A program made the position numbers and the translations under genes. The notes under the pieces were generated by a model, which was not told where the DNA came from, did no database searches, and saw nothing but the letters and a program-made list of their open reading frames with translations. A stretch of DNA of 64,000 nt from a virus: IMG/VR virus record IMGVR_UViG_3300042516_001464, positions 3,812-67,811 of that record. One strand, 5' to 3'. Shown piece by piece: positions 2,838-61,671 of this stretch (position 1 is its first letter; the number at the start of each line of letters is the position of its first letter).

Positions 2838-3131
<294 letters not shown>

Positions 3132-7447: not shown

Positions 7448-7565
7448 TAACGCTACGCTCACAAGCATTTTGGGAACCACCACAAGTTTCACGGGCTTTA
7501 TGGTTAGCATGATGCCGCATATAATTTCGTTTTCAACACAACAATTCCGAATCTTTCAAAATTAA
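7440..7565 (+). pseudogene. Truncated small membrane protein, apparent paralog of 36925..37104
   Basis: MNDNATLTSILGTTTSFTGFMVSMMPHI aligns loosely with MDTNSFNAGMAGIFATATSVGISLLPEI, then diverges and stops; same position after the chaperone copy. Confidence 0.4.
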
Positions 7566-7597
7566 TAATCGTAGGATGAACCTCAAAAAATAATATT

Positions 7598-8539
7598 ATG
7601 CCTATAACGAAAGCAAAAACAGCAGTAGTAAATCTTGACCAAGATACACTTATAAATGGAATTACGATTGGAAGAGGTGGAGGCAATGTTTTTTTCAATA
7701 CAGCCAACGGTGCAGGCGCACTCTTCTCAAACACAACAACAGGAACCAACAACACAGCCAGTGGTAGAAACGCACTCTACTCCAACACAACTGGATTCAA
7801 CAACACAGCCAGCGGTACAGGCGCACTCTTCTCAAACACAACTGGAAGCAACAACACAGCCAGCGGTGTAAACGCACTCAGCTCAAACACAACAGGAAGC
7901 AGCAACACAGCCAGTGGTAGAAACGCACTCCAAACCAACACAATATTCTCAAATGTTGGAGGATTCGGAAACAACGCTCAAGTATCTGGCTCAAATCAAA
8001 TCAGAATTGGCGATGCAAATATTACCAGTGTTACTTGCCAAACTAATGCTTGGTCTGATGAACGAGACAAATCTGATATTCGTGATACTGTTCTTGGCCT
8101 TGATTTCATCAAAGAACTTCGTCCAGTTGATTATAAATGGGACTACCGCGAAGATTATCGCCCAGAAGCACCTGTTTATGTAGGGAAACCAGCAGAACCA
8201 AAAGAAGATGCTTCTGACGAAGACAAGGCTAAATACGCTCAAGAACTTGCTGAATACAATGCTTATGTTGTTTTGAAAGACAAGTGGCTTGAAGACTGCA
8301 AGTGGTCTAACCTTGTTCACGATGGAACACACAAGCGCACTCGCTTCCATCATGGTTTGATTGCCCAAGAAGTTAAATCAGTTATTGAGAAAACTGGAGT
8401 TGATTTTGGAGGATTCCAAGATCACACAATCAAAGGTGGCGATGAGGTTATGACGATTGGTTACACCGAATTAATTGGGCCACTTATCAAGGCAGTCCAA
8501 GAACTTTCAGCTAAAGTTGAAGAATTAGAGTCAAAATAA
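7598..8539 (+). CDS. Tailspike/fibre with 14-aa repeats and a C-terminal intramolecular chaperone (peptidase S74)
   Basis: NNTASGxxALxSNTTG repeats; SDERDK, LRPVDYKW, HGLIAQEV, YTELIGPLIKAVQEL motifs. Confidence 0.85.
   Translation: MPITKAKTAVVNLDQDTLINGITIGRGGGNVFFNTANGAGALFSNTTTGTNNTASGRNALYSNTTGFNNTASGTGALFSNTTGSNNTASGVNALSSNTTGSSNTASGRNALQTNTIFSNVGGFGNNAQVSGSNQIRIGDANITSVTCQTNAWSDERDKSDIRDTVLGLDFIKELRPVDYKWDYREDYRPEAPVYVGKPAEPKEDASDEDKAKYAQELAEYNAYVVLKDKWLEDCKWSNLVHDGTHKRTRFHHGLIAQEVKSVIEKTGVDFGGFQDHTIKGGDEVMTIGYTELIGPLIKAVQELSAKVEELESK
7699..7945 (+). repeat. ~42-bp coding tandem repeats
   Basis: aacaacacagccag...gcactc...aacacaac repeated about 5 times. Confidence 0.8.
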
Positions 8540-56779: not shown

Positions 56780-56975
56780 GCAACACGATACAACGCAAGC
56801 GGCACAGCGCAGCGGCGCAGCACAGCGGAGCGGAGCGGATGACATAAGAGCGGAGGGACGGCGCAGCGGCACAGCACAGCACAGCGGAGGGTGGCACAGC
56901 GTAGGGGTGGCACAGCGTAGAGCGGAGGGCGGCAGGGGTGACGGGGCGGGGGGGTACGCAGCCGGTGCGTGGCAC
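56780..56975 (+). repeat. GC-rich, purine-skewed degenerate repeats (GCACAGCG / GCGGAG)
   Basis: Multiple gcacagc copies in a non-coding region. Confidence 0.75.
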
Positions 56976-57023
56976 GGAAACTATGCCCCAAATAAAAATA
57001 TAAAAATATAAAAATAAAAAACT

Positions 57024-57097
57024 TACCCTCGGCTGGGATCGAACCAGCAACCATCGAATTAGAAGTACGATACTCTATCCTATTGAGCTACGAGGGT
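57024..57097 (-). tRNA. tRNA-Arg (UCU), no encoded CCA
   Basis: Cloverleaf: acceptor ACCCTCG/CGAGGGT, D arm GCTC/GAGT, anticodon loop CT-TCT-AA, T arm GCTGG-TTCGATC-CCAGC. Confidence 0.9.
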
Positions 57098-58932: not shown

Positions 58933-59528
58933 ATTTTTTGTGTGGTTTGTGAAAGTAGCCTTGAACTAAATCGCCGTTTCTACGATATATGTAGCCATTA
59001 AAAAGTTCTTTGATTGCTCGGAAAAGGTCTTTGGTTAGGCATTTTTTATGAATGCGAACAGGCGTGTCTTCTACTTTTGCTGGAGATTTAAGCTCCATAT
59101 CGCATACAGCGCATTTCATTTCTTCACCTTCCCTGCTGTTGTAACATAAAACCTTATGTTTTGTCCATCTGTTAAATCTTTTTTCAAGAAAACATGAGCG
59201 GATTCAACTATTGTCCCCTCATCATTTGACCTATTTATGACATTCTTAAGAGCAGTGTTGATGTCTTCCACTATCATTTCAAAAAGCGCAGAGTTCTCAT
59301 TATGCTTTTCTGTATTGATCCATTCAGTTAAAACTGCATGACACTTAACATTTTGCTCCATACTATTTCTTCTTCCAGTCAATTTCGTCGTAGTTGTCCC
59401 AATACTTCTTTGTGATTGGTCTTGGTTTATCGCCCTTGCCAGCTCCATCAGTTTTGGATTTCAACGCCTTGATTCTGGCTTTCCTATCATCGTCGTGTTT
59501 TAGTTTCATTGTGGTTTTTTTAAAGTTT

Positions 59529-60345
59529 CGCAGGAACGAGTATGCATCCTCTTTTCAGGTGTTGGGTTGCCAAGGTTACGCCTCCTACCCCGCTATGCAG
59601 CGGATCGGTGACTCGGTAATATACCTCCCAACCTCGATGTGGCAGTGGCTAGAAATCCCTAACCTAACCGCTCATCCGGCAATTATTACACCTGCCTGCT
59701 ATATTAGTCTCCTCAACTATAGCGTCCTATAGTCTCATCTGTTAATTCAGATTCGGGCGATGCCAGAACAGGTCTGACAGAGCGGTAACCGGAAGTAGTT
59801 TTGATACGGGTTGGCGCGTTACTACCAATCATGGTTTCAGTTTCGGCCCCATGTAATGCCGATAGGCTGTTGATGCCAGTTAAACAAGGTTGCTTCAAAG
59901 CTCGCAACTTAGCTGCATGACTCCATGCTTCCCGTAAAGTTTACTACCAAGACCTTTCATTACCTTTCGGTGAAAAGTTCCCTACAGAGTAAATGTTGAT
60001 TCTAGACTCATTGCATTGTCTTCTGTCGCGGATATAGCTTTGCAGGCTTATGCGCTTGGTAGTTTGCAATCCAGTTAATGTTAGCTCTTGTCGCATCCAT
60101 GGGGCTTACGAGACGAGGGCATGAACCCCGTTTCCATTAACCAGATTAAATATATCAAAGATCATTACCACTGATTCGCATCGCTGGCTCAATGGTCAAG
60201 CCTCTGTGGATTCCCTGCCTCTGGCAGATAATAAAATTGGGGCTGTCTCTCCAGCCATGTCACGCCTTACACCAGTTAATGGAACTGGCAACTAAGGTGG
60301 GCGTTCACCGACTTATGGAAATGTGGTCGTTCAGCGACTCCAAGG
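59529..60345 (-). ncRNA. Array of candidate structured ncRNAs, including an ~400-nt module at 59529-59935
   Basis: Successive self-closing stems with G-U pairs and a GAAA loop on the minus strand; no credible ORF. Confidence 0.6.
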
Positions 60346-60399
60346 AAATAGTTTATTTGTCATGTATTTAATTTATTTTATTTTAAAAAAAAGTAAAGC

Positions 60400-61671
60400 C
60401 TATTGTTCAGCAACTCCCTCCTCCAATCGAGCCATATGCTTATGGAACCTCAATGGGATTATTGGCGTTGTTCCGTTCCTATTGTGTGTGATGTGAAGAA
60501 CATATGCGTATGGATCATCTGACTCTTCCGCTGGCATGATCTTTGTGAGGCTATCGCAGTCCATCTCAAATGTCCGGCTCTCGCGGATCGTGTTATCCTC
60601 GTTGAGTTGAGCAAGCAGAACCACACACACATTCAACTCTTTCGCTACGATCTTCGTCATGCGGCTGATCTCTGCTACTTGGCGTTCCCTGCTTTCCTTT
60701 AGATTGCTTGGAGTCACAAGTTGCGCGTAGTCCAACATAATAATCTCACACTTGTTCTCAGCAACTAACCTTCTTGCCCTGGCTCTAAATTGATTCACCG
60801 TCATTGAGGCTTCATCAACAATGTGGATTGGAGCCTTCATTCCCTGCGCCATGAAATTTGATACCTTGGCGAAGTCTGCTCTGCTGAGTTTCCCATCACG
60901 GAGATCATTCATTCCAATCTGTGCATGGCAGGATGTGATCTTGTCTACGAGTTCACCAGCGCCCATCTCAAGCGATATGATCCCAATTGGAACTTTCTTA
61001 TCTATGGCTGGAGTAGTAACCATCTGAAGTGCTGCTGTGGTCTTACCCTGCTTGGCGCGTCCAGCTACAATGTGAACCGTCTGAGGCCGGAATCCTCGCG
61101 TTGACATATTCCACTTTGGGAAACATGAATCATGTCCTCGATTGATTGCGCCTCCAGTTCTTGCCGCCTCTTCCCATGCCGTGATCCTGCTGTTGAATAC
61201 TTCCGCAATGTGAACAGATTCGGTTTTTGTTGTCATCATTCCGGTTATCTCACGGCTTGCGGCTTCCTTGATATCTTCTGGGTCTTGAGTCCTATCAAGC
61301 GCATCTGCCGCCATTCTCTTCGCAGCAAAGTGTATTTTTCTACGAAGGTAGCAATCGGATATTGTTTTGAAGTATTCATCCCAGTTAGCGGATGAGTAAA
61401 CAACAGTGTAGATTTGCGTGATGTAGTGTTCCCCGCCAATTCCCTCAAGAAGTCCGGCTGCTTGCAACTCAGAGGTTATTGTTAACAAGTCTATAGGTTT
61501 CTTGTCAAAATACATCTTAACCAATGTAGCCCAGATGTCTTGGTGTGCTGGAAGGTTAAAGTGTTCCAGTGTAATAATATCGGCAATTTTGCCAATGATT
61601 CGCGTGTCTTGCATGCAAGAGCAAAGCAAGCCTTGCTCCGCGCCCATATCGGACGGTAGTTGTTTTTCCAT
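60400..61671 (-). CDS. dnaB: Replicative DNA helicase
   Basis: AEQGLL N-terminal domain, Walker A AGRAKQGKT, ISLEM, LDYAQL, LAQLN, NRNG. Confidence 0.92.
   Translation of the reverse strand: MEKQLPSDMGAEQGLLCSCMQDTRIIGKIADIITLEHFNLPAHQDIWATLVKMYFDKKPIDLLTITSELQAAGLLEGIGGEHYITQIYTVVYSSANWDEYFKTISDCYLRRKIHFAAKRMAADALDRTQDPEDIKEAASREITGMMTTKTESVHIAEVFNSRITAWEEAARTGGAINRGHDSCFPKWNMSTRGFRPQTVHIVAGRAKQGKTTAALQMVTTPAIDKKVPIGIISLEMGAGELVDKITSCHAQIGMNDLRDGKLSRADFAKVSNFMAQGMKAPIHIVDEASMTVNQFRARARRLVAENKCEIIMLDYAQLVTPSNLKESRERQVAEISRMTKIVAKELNVCVVLLAQLNEDNTIRESRTFEMDCDSLTKIMPAEESDDPYAYVLHITHNRNGTTPIIPLRFHKHMARLEEGVAEQ

What the first reader, a model, noticed from the sequence alone, without database searches (positions are those of the whole stretch)
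59529..59935. ~400-nt highly structured candidate large ncRNA
Seen on the minus strand: the ends pair (CGGGAA..GAGU.AUGCA with UGCAUACUC.UUCCUG). Internal helices include GUUGC/GCAAC, UCGGC/GCCGA, ACCGCUC/GAGCGGU (long range), UGUCAGA/UCUGGCA, AUCUG/CAGAU, GACUAUAG/CUAUAGUU, GGUUAGG/UCUAGCC, CCGCU/AGCGG and CGAGGUU/AACCUUG, with a possible pseudoknot UACUUCC/GGAGGUA. It lacks tmRNA, RNase P and group I intron hallmarks. Inferred: a large phage ncRNA, possibly a new class.
Basis: partly seen in the sequence, partly recalled or inferred. Interest (0 to 1): 0.8.

Follow-up and report, generated by a model that had tools for sequence, protein, structure and literature searches.

The report
Array of three novel phage RNAs
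The flagged 400 bases of this lake-water phage hold three separate, conserved small structured RNA genes of unknown function, packed head to tail like tRNA genes, and one of them seems built to pair with a copy of itself.

Summary
The structure is real, but it is not one large RNA. The window is a 67.8-kb lake phage. The finding lies in an 890-nt ORF-poor gap between dnaB and small ORFs on the minus strand.

Related phages show three independent cassettes. RNA-A is 59936-59805, RNA-B about 59797-59707, and RNA-C 59701-59526. In other phages they occur alone, in other orders (A-C, C-A, C-B, A-D-C), or directly beside tRNA genes, always on one strand.

Covariation supports the local helices:
- RNA-A: 36 pairs, 17 with compensatory changes.
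- RNA-C: 35 pairs including a pseudoknot, 20 compensatory.
- RNA-B: two hairpins are supported.

No Rfam-15 family matches any cassette, and no ORF is conserved.

RNA-C is the most informative. It is widespread in IMG/VR and metagenome contigs, mostly one copy per locus, and hit 1 contig in the scan of 185,579 species' genomes. It has an invariant three-way-junction core. Its hairpin-loop hexamer is self-complementary in 96 of 110 distinct sequences, across nine different palindromes. That points to a kissing-loop homodimer.

Function is unknown. The closest analogues are ROOL/GOLLD and T4 species 1/2 RNAs. Expression and processing are not shown.

The parts
59805..59936 (-). RNA-A, about 132 nt. 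Closing stem UACGGG (59936-59931) with CCCGUA (59810-59805). Hairpins GCAUG-GAGU-CAUGC, GUUGC-loop-GCAAC and UGGC-loop-GCCU. H-type pseudoknot UCGGC/GCCGA plus CAUGG/CCAUG. Hairpin UUGG-loop-CCAA.
   Evidence: The pattern scan found 68 IMG/VR stretches, giving 45 distinct sequences. On 24 of those 45: 36 pairs, 95.8% of cells paired, 17 pairs with changes on both sides against 2-6 in slid controls, and 0 of 500 shuffles as high.
59707..59797 (-). RNA-B, about 90 nt. Hairpin UGUCAGA/UCUGGCA (59779-59761). Hairpin AUCUG-AAUUAA-CAGAU (59752-59737). Hairpin ACUAUAG-GACG-CUAUAGU (59733-59716). Possible closing stem UUCC (59794-59791) with GGAG (59712-59709).
   Evidence: The scan found 43 IMG/VR stretches, giving 36 distinct sequences. 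On 26 of those 36, the second hairpin has 3 of 5 pairs covarying and the third 6 of 7 (86% and 92% of cells paired). The closing stem is only 54% paired in that alignment, so it is not established.
59526..59701 (-). RNA-C, about 176 nt. P1 is GCAGG (59699-59695) with CCUGC (59534-59530). P2 is CAGGUGU with ACACCUG. The inner domain has a GAUG/CAUC helix. The pseudoknot is GAGGU (59635-59631) with ACCUU (59576-59572), plus UGGG (59630-59627) with CCCA (59566-59563). The junction is CUGAAAAG (59558-59551). Hairpin P3 is GAG-G AUGCAU A-CUC (59551-59538), with the self-complementary loop AUGCAU at 59547-59542. Then GUU, then the 3' strand of P1.
   Evidence: Scans: 63 and 83 IMG/VR stretches, and 73 metagenome stretches. 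Covariance model R1 finds one copy in each of 63 sources. On 31 sequences: 35 pairs in 7 helices, 93.3% paired, 20 pairs with double changes against 4-10 slid. On 100 model-aligned sequences: 96.3% paired, 19 of 28 pairs. The MFE fold of the window copy gives the same helices, z = -2.62.
60152..60227 (-). Cassette F, 76 nt, starting CUGCC-AGA-GGCAG. It lies upstream in the same array and outside the finding.
   Evidence: Found at 82-95% identity in 19 loci, beside A, C or D in various orders. Structure was not tested by covariation. MFE z = -1.77.
59939..60151 (-). 213-nt stretch present in the window but absent from all 9 sister loci, between cassette F and RNA-A.
   Evidence: Alignment. No match among the loci held. 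Metagenome contigs of other contexts carry 59945-60062.
60228..60400 (-). First unit after the dnaB stop. It has a promoter-like site (60409-60380), repeated GUCGNUGAACGNCCAC boxes, and a terminator-like hairpin GGCUG-GAGAGA-CAGCC followed by a U-rich run (60256-60241).
   Evidence: Consensus scan. Conserved in 16 loci of the sister clade. Not studied further.
59363..59509 (-). 48-aa ORF that starts about 20 nt after RNA-C. It is conserved in the sister clade only.
   Evidence: No Pfam family.
60400..61671 (-). DnaB-type replicative helicase, upstream neighbour on the same strand.
   Evidence: Pfam DnaB_C 8.4e-48 and DnaB 7e-23.

Best explanation
The region is part of an array of small, separately folding RNA genes on the minus strand of a virulent lake phage.

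- RNA-A, RNA-B and RNA-C are three unrelated families. Each is a compact fold (shown by covariation). RNA-A and RNA-C are each shut by their own closing stem.
- They behave in evolution like tRNA genes in a phage tRNA island. They are gained, lost, reordered and swapped for tRNAs between close relatives, always co-oriented, with linkers of a few bases (shown).
- Most likely the array is transcribed as one precursor with its neighbours and cut by the host's tRNA/RNA-processing nucleases into stand-alone stable RNAs (inferred from packing and from the T4 precedent).
- RNA-C has an invariant three-way-junction core (AGGCAG / CUGAAAAG / CGUYCCU), an H-type pseudoknot, and a hairpin whose 6-nt loop is self-complementary whatever its sequence. 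Two RNA-C molecules therefore probably join by a loop-loop kissing contact into a symmetric dimer (inferred from covariation).
- What the RNAs do is not known. My working guess is trans-acting accessory RNAs, with a particle or decoy that binds a host or phage factor during infection, in the manner proposed for ROOL/GOLLD (speculative).
For: Cassette independence:
- Nine sister loci show the mosaic. L003 has tRNA-Ala in place of A. L002 has tRNA-Met between A and B. L006, L008 and L010 lack B.
- Orders seen in the loci held: FABC, FAC, ADC, CAD, CADF, BDA, CB, CF. In every locus with two or more cassettes all lie on one strand. C occurs alone in 81 loci, B in 37, A in 25.

Placement in tRNA islands:
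- RNA-C starts 3-4 nt after the CCA of a tRNA in L042, L046, L056, L065 and L078. It is followed by a tRNA in L063 and L065.
- RNA-B follows a tRNA in L131.

Structure:
-, with counts given under parts.
- The closing stem P1 of RNA-C changes as whole pairs: UAGCAGG/CCUGCUA, UUCAACAGG/CCUGUUGAA, UUGCGGCAGG/CCUGCCGCAA.
- The divergent L100a changes the otherwise constant A-U pair to G-C.

Strand:
- One pair is G-U in 31 of 31 sequences, and another in 9 of 31. On the other strand these would be A-C. So the fold belongs to the transcript of the minus strand, the strand of the flanking genes.

Self-complementary loop:
- Of 117 distinct pattern matches, 7 come from 8 loci with no model hit. These are chance matches, and 0 of 7 are palindromic.
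- Of the other 110, 96 have an exact palindromic hexamer, and 107 if G-U is allowed.
- Nine different exact palindromes occur: AUGCAU, CGGCCG, GCGCGC, CGCGCG, UCGCGA, GUGCAC, UGCGCA, UUGCAA, AGCGCU. Chance would give 1 in 64.
- The central two bases cannot pair within a hairpin, so the constraint points to a second molecule.

Restricted to phages: 1 hit in the scan of 185,579 species' genomes, on a 51.8-kb contig.

Not coding:
- The best frame is stop-free in only 8 of 31 sequences.
- 92 of 121 and 77 of 81 indel runs are not multiples of 3.
- No Pfam family.

Precedents:
- T4 rnaC and rnaD are annotated small stable RNAs, 1 and 6 nt apart, right after tRNA-Arg.
- ROOL and GOLLD are phage RNAs near tRNA islands, of unknown function, held in multimers by kissing loops (PMC12286853, passages read).
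Against: - No direct evidence of transcription, of discrete ends or of dimerisation. The only RNA-library data are assembled contigs, which cannot show ends or expression.
- In the window no tRNA adjoins the array, so the processing route is assumed.
- The closing stem of RNA-B is not supported (54% paired).
- The window's own RNA-C P1 extension has A-G and A-A mismatches.
- Ascertainment: homologues were found with sequence patterns that fix some positions. The scan forced UGCAU, although searches left the loop free. Alignment A4 was fitted to the model. The sequences are related, so the shuffle controls overstate significance. The slid-partner controls are the fairer comparison.
- 3 of 110 RNA-C sequences have loops that are not self-complementary (GCGCAC, UCGCGC, GAAGCC).
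- Nothing links the RNAs to any protein partner or phenotype.
Confidence: 0.6

Rival explanations
1. One large (~400 nt) ornate RNA, closed by pairing of its 5' and 3' ends. A, B and C would be its domains.
For: - In the window and in L004 the three lie directly next to each other in the order A-B-C.
- About 15 nt at the start of A are complementary to the end of C.
- The centroid fold of the 407 nt pairs the ends.
Against: - Each unit occurs without the others and in the reverse order. C-A is seen in L036, L037, L041, L049, L069 and L074.
- tRNAs replace or split the units.
- The proposed end pairs are used in local helices that covary locally, while the A side is invariant.
- Where RNA-C's loop is GUGCAC (L096) or GCGCGU (L180, L196), RNA-A keeps GCAUGGAGUCAUGC. 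So there is no co-variation between A and C.
- The whole-region fold is no better than shuffles (z = -1.0).
Confidence: 0.04
2. The cassettes, or some of them, are new self-cleaving ribozymes that cut the array or tRNA precursor into pieces. RNA-C's invariant three-way-junction core would be a catalytic centre.
For: - About 21 nt at the RNA-C junction are invariant, while the helices around them vary.
- Compact folds with pseudoknots, tightly packed against tRNA 3' ends.
- CUGAAAAG resembles the hammerhead CUGANGA strand. The hammerhead motif is recalled, not retrieved by a call.
- Recalled knowledge: self-cleaving ribozyme classes cluster in phage-like neighbourhoods.
Against: - No match to any ribozyme family of Rfam 15, even at E<=10 or E<=1.
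- The positions that correspond to hammerhead G8 and the GAAA strand are A and GUY (sequence).
- A dimerisation loop is not expected of a cis-cleaving unit.
- No cleavage data.
Confidence: 0.15
3. A cis-acting leader (riboswitch or translational operator) of the 48-aa ORF that starts 20 nt downstream.
For: RNA-C ends about 20 nt before an ATG in the window clade, and likewise in L030, L057, L040 and L077.
Against: In other phages RNA-C is followed by a tRNA, by RNA-A, B or F, or by the end of a convergent gene. The downstream ORF is conserved only in the sister clade. No terminator or sequestering helix follows it.
Confidence: 0.05
4. DNA-level elements next to the helicase gene, such as a replication origin, iterons or protein-binding palindromes, rather than RNA.
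For: The position beside dnaB. The repeated boxes in 60400-60228. The palindromic hexamers.
Against: - Helices hold G-U pairs, 31 of 31 at one position, which would be A-C on the other strand.
- The cassettes sit co-oriented inside tRNA arrays far from any dnaB.
- Base-pair covariation with pseudoknots is not a property of duplex binding sites.
- The purines flanking the hexamer break the DNA palindrome.
Confidence: 0.03
5. Small protein-coding genes: the 64-aa TTG ORF 59713-59907 on the minus strand, or the 112-aa TTG ORF 59394-59732 on the plus strand.
For: The ORFs exist in the window.
Against: No Pfam family. No frame stays open in more than 8 of 31 homologues. Most indels are not multiples of 3.
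Confidence: 0.01

Closest known systems
ROOL and GOLLD RNAs (Rfam families; cryo-EM paper PMC12286853, passages read)
   Same: Phage-encoded, located in or beside tRNA islands, ornate folds with pseudoknots, function unknown. Intermolecular kissing loops are conserved by covariation and build RNA-only multimers. RNA-C shares the setting and shows the signature of a self-complementary loop.
   Different: ROOL and GOLLD are single RNAs of about 580 and over 800 nt (the ROOL size is recalled). RNA-A, B and C are 90-190 nt and are separate units. No similarity to either Rfam model. A single palindromic loop predicts a dimer, not necessarily a cage.
Phage T4 species 1 and species 2 RNAs (rnaC, rnaD)
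   Same: Small stable RNAs of 139 and 119 nt with no assigned function. They are packed 1 and 6 nt apart directly after tRNA-Arg in the phage's tRNA cluster (annotation of NC_000866). The gene layout is the same as for RNA-C, A and B in lake phages.
   Different: No homology: model R1 scores 5 bits or less over rnaC (2909-3047) and lists no match within rnaD. The T4 RNAs end in tRNA-like T-arm and acceptor sequences, which the three cassettes lack.
Retroviral dimerisation initiation site (HIV-1 DIS), recalled knowledge
   Same: A hairpin whose loop carries a 6-nt palindrome that differs between lineages (GCGCGC or GUGCAC in HIV-1) and is flanked by purines. It makes a loop-loop kissing homodimer. 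RNA-C P3 has the same design, and two of the same hexamers occur.
   Different: A different molecule and setting. For RNA-C dimerisation is inferred from sequence only.
Hammerhead ribozyme
   Same: A three-way junction with a conserved core. One junction strand, CUGAAAAG, resembles CUGANGA(G).
   Different: The essential G8 and the GAAA strand are absent, and the third strand differs. No Rfam hammerhead hit.
Unnamed candidate structured RNAs from IMG/VR (8,495 'DNAVirus_X' motifs; PMC10690425, passages read)
   Same: Same data source and the same kind of object: covarying intergenic motifs of phages, some tRNA-like.
   Different: Those motifs are 29-151 nt (mean 67) and are listed only in supplementary files, which I could not open. 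Parts of A, B or C may already be among them. The text read describes no cassette arrays and does not contain the word 'kissing'.

Membership tests
GOLLD / ROOL (Rfam) | Match to the family covariance model | tested here: not met
   No match at gathering score in the window or in 15 array loci. None at E<=10 in 59300-60500. None at E<=1 in 15 further loci.
GOLLD / ROOL (Rfam) | One large RNA (over 500 nt) with a single overall architecture | tested here: not met
   Three units that occur apart and in different orders.
GOLLD / ROOL (Rfam) | Phage-encoded and near tRNA genes | tested here: met
   RNA-C abuts tRNAs in L042, L046, L056, L063, L065 and L078. tRNAs lie inside the sister arrays.
GOLLD / ROOL (Rfam) | RNA-only multimer held by intermolecular contacts | not testable with these tools
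   Only the sequence signature is available: a self-complementary loop in 96 of 110 sequences.
tRNA / tmRNA | Cloverleaf or tRNA-like domain recognised by ARAGORN or Rfam | tested here: not met
   The only tRNA in the window is tRNA-Arg at 57024-57097. Nothing at the cassettes in other loci.
RNase P RNA, group I / II introns | Match to the Rfam models | tested here: not met
   Searches give no such match. No interrupted gene flanks the cassettes.
Hammerhead and other self-cleaving ribozymes in Rfam | Conserved catalytic core (hammerhead: CUGANGA, GAAA, cleavage-site strand; recalled), or a match to the model | tested here: not met
   The RNA-C junction reads CUGAAAAG / CGUY / AGGCAG. No Rfam ribozyme match. 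Catalysis itself was not tested.
T4 species 1 / species 2 RNA | Sequence or structure homology | tested here: not met
   R1 with filters off on the T4 tRNA region scores 5 bits or less over rnaC and lists no match within rnaD. RNA-A and RNA-B were not modelled against it.
T4 species 1 / species 2 RNA | Small RNA gene packed within a phage tRNA cluster | tested here: met
Riboswitch / cis-regulatory leader | Constant position upstream of one gene family, with an expression platform | tested here: not met
   Downstream neighbours vary: tRNA, other cassettes, a convergent gene, or different ORFs.

The most novel reading that the evidence does not exclude
Lake phages carry exchangeable cassette arrays of at least five unrelated, previously uncatalogued structured RNA classes (A, B, C, D, F). 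These are deployed like tRNA islands and often inside them. RNA-C is a miniature self-assembling RNA, a kissing-loop dimer or larger RNA-only particle with an invariant junction core. It would be a small counterpart of ROOL/GOLLD. The cassettes together would form an RNA-based accessory arsenal for host takeover or counter-defence.
Probability: 0.35. Interest if true: 0.85.

Novelty: new variant of a known kind. Interest (0 to 1): 0.75.

Why it matters
Phage RNAs near tRNA islands (GOLLD, ROOL, T4 species 1/2) are a long-standing puzzle. They are conserved and elaborate, and none has a known function.

This locus adds three compact families of 90-190 nt with good covariation support. It also shows that such RNAs are shuffled as cassettes along with tRNAs.

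RNA-C is small enough for direct tests such as native gels, SEC, probing and cryo-EM. It also carries a clear, mutable prediction: dimerisation through a palindromic loop. That makes it a tractable entry point to what self-associating phage RNAs do.

The cassette arrays also mark a class of intergenic "hot spot" in uncultured lake phages that gene callers leave blank.

Tried and rejected
- **Whole-region folding.** Energy does not support the finding. The plus strand is no better.
- **Cultured phages.** blastn of 59400-60500 against 50,697 phage records found no match. The helicase finds only relatives below 30% identity. So no isolate or host is at hand.
- **First RNA-B pattern.** It was mis-spaced by me. 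Its 12 hits, L017-L028, are treated as chance and were dropped from all counts.
- **Exact 23-mer of RNA-A.** It found only the sister contigs.
- **Sequencing runs.** The stretch is held by lake or freshwater DNA runs. Two RNA libraries hold small shares. When laid, they give contigs covering 59530-59642, 59674-59940 and 59970-60062. Contigs cannot show transcription, ends or level, and their ends at cassette borders probably reflect assembly-graph branching at the mosaic joints. I draw no conclusion from them.
- **Bacteroidota-type promoter.** I considered reading the box GATCTTTGA as a -7 element before each cassette. I set it aside because a start there would remove covarying 5' strands.
- **T4 homology.** rnaC and rnaD show no homology to RNA-C.
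- **Literature.** Four searches and two papers read in passages turned up no description of these RNAs. One search found nothing. One paper was seen in outline only and is unrelated to these RNAs (manA and EGFOA). A search on T4 species 1/2 RNA gave nothing useful.
Full report
**Setting.** The window is almost all of a 67,811-bp virus record with direct terminal repeats. Its DNA is held by lake and freshwater metagenome runs. The finding (59529-59935, minus strand) lies in an 890-nt stretch without a credible ORF. Upstream is a DnaB-type helicase gene (60400-61671; Pfam DnaB_C 8.4e-48). Downstream is a run of small ORFs that starts with a 48-aa ORF at 59509. Everything here is on the minus strand. 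The only catalogued RNA in the window is tRNA-Arg(UCU) at 57024-57097. A permissive Rfam search of 59300-60500 gave three weak lncRNA/sRNA matches with E from 0.16 to 3.7 and scores far below gathering. None is a known bacterial or phage RNA class.

**Is the observation more than chance?** By folding energy alone it is not. The 407 nt fold at -126 kcal/mol against -119.6 +/- 6.4 for shuffles (z = -1.0, with 15 of 100 shuffles as good). The plus strand gives z = +0.27. The case rests on comparison with relatives.

**The region is modular.** The helicase protein brought in nine IMG/VR loci with 87-96% identical helicases. Aligning the DNA after the helicase stop shows a mosaic.
- Block A (59938-59805) is present in six loci that reach that far.
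- In L003, block A is replaced by a tRNA-Ala gene.
- L002 has a tRNA-Met gene inserted between blocks A and B.
- Block B (59804-59705) is missing in L006, L008 and L010.
- Block C (59704-59526) keeps its two ends but has a different interior in L002 and L003.
- The window alone has 213 extra bases (60151-59939).
- A 76-nt block F (60227-60152) precedes A in several loci.

**Three families, each widespread on its own.**
- A pattern from the 3' end of C found 63 IMG/VR stretches. With the loop left free it found 83, and 73 metagenome stretches.
- A pattern from A found 68 stretches.
- A corrected pattern from B found 43. My first B pattern was mis-spaced, and its hits were discarded.
- In the loci held, the cassettes occur alone (C in 81 loci, B in 37, A in 25) or together in many orders: FABC, FAC, ADC, CAD, CADF, BDA, DAD, AF, CB, CF. 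In every locus with two or more cassettes all lie on one strand. D is a further cassette that is not in the window.
- In L042, L046, L056, L065 and L078, RNA-C begins 3-4 nt after the CCA end of a tRNA gene, inside arrays of 2 to 18 tRNAs in the stretches held. In L063 and L065 a tRNA follows it. RNA-B follows a tRNA in L131.
- None of the cassettes matched any Rfam-15 family, either at gathering score in 15 array loci or at E<=1 in 15 further loci.
- A scan of one genome for each of 185,579 prokaryote species found the RNA-C pattern once. That hit is on a 51.8-kb contig of a metagenome-assembled genome that also carries A and D. So the family looks confined to free phage genomes.

**Structure of RNA-C.** I sorted 53 distinct full-length sequences from the first scan by interior: 31 of the window's type, 20 of a second type, and 2 others. 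For the 31:
- RNAalifold predicted 28 pairs, 15 of them with compensatory changes.
- I added a P1 extension and a pseudoknot that I had seen by eye. This gives 35 pairs in 7 helices, with 93.3% of cells paired.
- 20 pairs and 166 cells show changes on both sides, against 4-10 pairs and 14-39 cells when partners are slid by 1-3 columns. 0 of 500 shuffles reach the cell count or the covariation score.
- The pseudoknot helix (UGGG/CCCA in the window) is paired in 100% of cells and covaries at 2 of 4 pairs, for example UGAGG/CCUCA in L086.
- A covariance model built from these sequences finds exactly one copy in each of 63 sources, including the other interior types.
- On 100 model-aligned sequences from 99 sources, 96.3% of cells pair and 19 of 28 pairs covary. 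That alignment leans towards the model.
- The window copy's MFE fold gives the same helices, z = -2.62.

The common scaffold runs as follows: P1 (8-11 bp, changing as whole pairs), then P2, then a variable interior ending in an H-type pseudoknot. It continues with the junction strand CUGAAAAG, hairpin P3, GUY, and the 3' strand of P1. About 21 junction nucleotides (AGGCAG, CUGAAAAG, CGUYCCU) are constant. In the divergent L100a copy, one of the constant P1 pairs changes from A-U to G-C. G-U pairs, 31 of 31 at one position, tie the fold to the minus-strand transcript.

**The self-complementary loop.** I pooled the three scans. Two of them left the loop free. This gave 117 distinct matches.
- Seven come from the eight metagenome loci where the model finds nothing. 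They are chance matches and serve as a control: 0 of 7 have a palindromic loop hexamer.
- Of the other 110, 96 have an exact palindrome, and 107 if G-U is allowed. Three do not.
- Nine different exact palindromes occur, where chance gives 1 in 64.
- The inner two pairs of such a hexamer, including the central GC or CG step, cannot form within one hairpin. The simplest reading is pairing with the same loop of a second molecule, a kissing-loop homodimer. This design is known from retroviral dimerisation sites (recalled) and from ROOL, GOLLD and OLE. It is an inference and nothing here measures it.

**RNA-A and RNA-B.**
- For RNA-A I used 24 of 45 distinct sequences. There are 36 pairs in 7 helices, and 95.8% are paired. 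17 pairs show double changes against 2-6 slid, with 0 of 500 shuffles as high.
- Its closing stem changes from UACGGG/CCCGUA to UACUGGG/CCCAGUA and to GUGAGGCG/CGCCUCGC.
- Each stem of its H-type pseudoknot has one covarying pair. Parts of that pseudoknot were fixed by my search pattern.
- For RNA-B I used 26 of 36 distinct sequences. Two of the ten left out, L154 and L161, look like chance matches. The two 3' hairpins covary at 3 of 5 and 6 of 7 pairs. The closing stem is not supported in that alignment (54% paired).

Three proposed features connect different cassettes: the terminal helix, the long-range ACCGCUC/GAGCGGU helix, and the pseudoknot UACUUCC/GGAGGUA. The 5' partner of the terminal helix never varies. 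The 3' partner varies and is compensated inside RNA-C's own hairpin. Where RNA-C's loop differs (L096, L180, L196), RNA-A stays the same. So there is no sign of A-C pairing, within or between molecules.

**Not coding and not a DNA site.**
- No reading frame anchored on the conserved 3' motif is stop-free in more than 8 of 31 RNA-C homologues.
- 92 of 121 indel runs (RNA-C) and 77 of 81 (RNA-A) against the window are not multiples of three.
- The window's ORFs in the region hit no Pfam family.
- Strand-specific G-U pairs and pseudoknots argue against a duplex-DNA element.

**How it most likely works.** Shown: three compact, covarying folds. They are inherited as cassettes, co-oriented, and tightly packed among themselves and with tRNAs. 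Inferred: transcription as a precursor and release by the nucleases that process tRNA precursors. In tRNA arrays, cutting at the flanking tRNA ends would by itself free RNA-C with a few extra bases. T4 offers an annotated precedent, with the small stable RNAs rnaC and rnaD lying 1 and 6 nt apart after tRNA-Arg. They are not homologous to RNA-C. Inferred: RNA-C dimerises. Speculative: the RNAs act in trans on a host or phage factor. A catalytic role for the invariant RNA-C junction is not excluded. Its strand CUGAAAAG recalls the hammerhead, but the hammerhead's essential positions are absent.

**Novelty and limits.**
- Rfam 15 holds none of the three.
- Four literature searches and two papers read in passages found no description.
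- A 2023 survey lists 8,495 unnamed IMG/VR motifs of 29-151 nt in supplements that I could not open. Pieces of these RNAs may be among them.
- Expression is untested. RNA-library contigs overlap the cassettes but prove nothing.
- Homologues were gathered by sequence patterns, which fixes some columns and misses divergent members.

**Verdict.** This is a real and interesting non-coding locus. It consists of three new small structured RNA families in a phage RNA-cassette array. It is not one large RNA.

Noticed in passing
window 59939-60151 (minus strand): 213 bases between cassette F and RNA-A that none of the 9 sister loci has. Part of it (about 59945-60062) turns up in other contexts in metagenome contigs, including an RNA-library contig with the highest depth laid (35). 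It may be a further RNA cassette.
   Followed up: partly
window 60152-60227 (minus strand): Cassette F, 76 nt, starting CUGCC-AGA-GGCAG. It is found in 19 loci at 82-95% identity, next to A, C or D in different orders. Its structure was not tested by covariation.
   Followed up: partly
window 60228-60400 (minus strand): Right after the dnaB stop there is a promoter-like site, two copies of a GUCGNUGAACGNCCAC box and a terminator-like hairpin with a U-rich run (60256-60241). This is possibly a separate small RNA with its own terminator.
   Followed up: no
L034 about 7520-7600 (minus strand), and many loci: Cassette D (AUGGUCGGCGGAUGAG...GAGUUAACCCGGCC) is not in the window. It sits about 50 nt after RNA-A in more than 20 loci and shares a GGAUGAG box with the interior of RNA-C.
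   Followed up: no
L238 2711-3118; L100 2580-3203: Two phages carry two RNA-C genes. L238 has two near-identical copies about 90 nt apart. L100 has a divergent copy (core CGGGCAG/CUGAAGG, loop AGCGCU) and, about 290 nt further on, a fourth interior type (loop UGCGCA) that model R1 misses.
   Followed up: partly
L087 (genome contigs, contig of 51,842 bases): The only hit of the RNA-C pattern among the species' genomes scanned is in a metagenome-assembled genome labelled Woesearchaeota. The contig carries A, D and C like the phage arrays. It is probably a phage contig binned with the archaeon.
   Followed up: no
window 56800-57021: A stretch with G+C up to 0.685, against about 0.43 around it. 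It holds 2.7 copies of a 16-nt repeat (56879-56920) and an A+T-rich 8-nt repeat (56992-57021), just before tRNA-Arg(UCU) at 57024-57097. No convincing ORF.
   Followed up: no
L002 9190-9266; L006 7941-8014; L008 7179-7252; L010 7143-7216: The tRNA-Arg(UCU) gene about 2.5 kb downstream of the array is kept in four of the sister loci, whereas the tRNAs inside the array (Met in L002, Ala in L003) differ between them.
   Followed up: no
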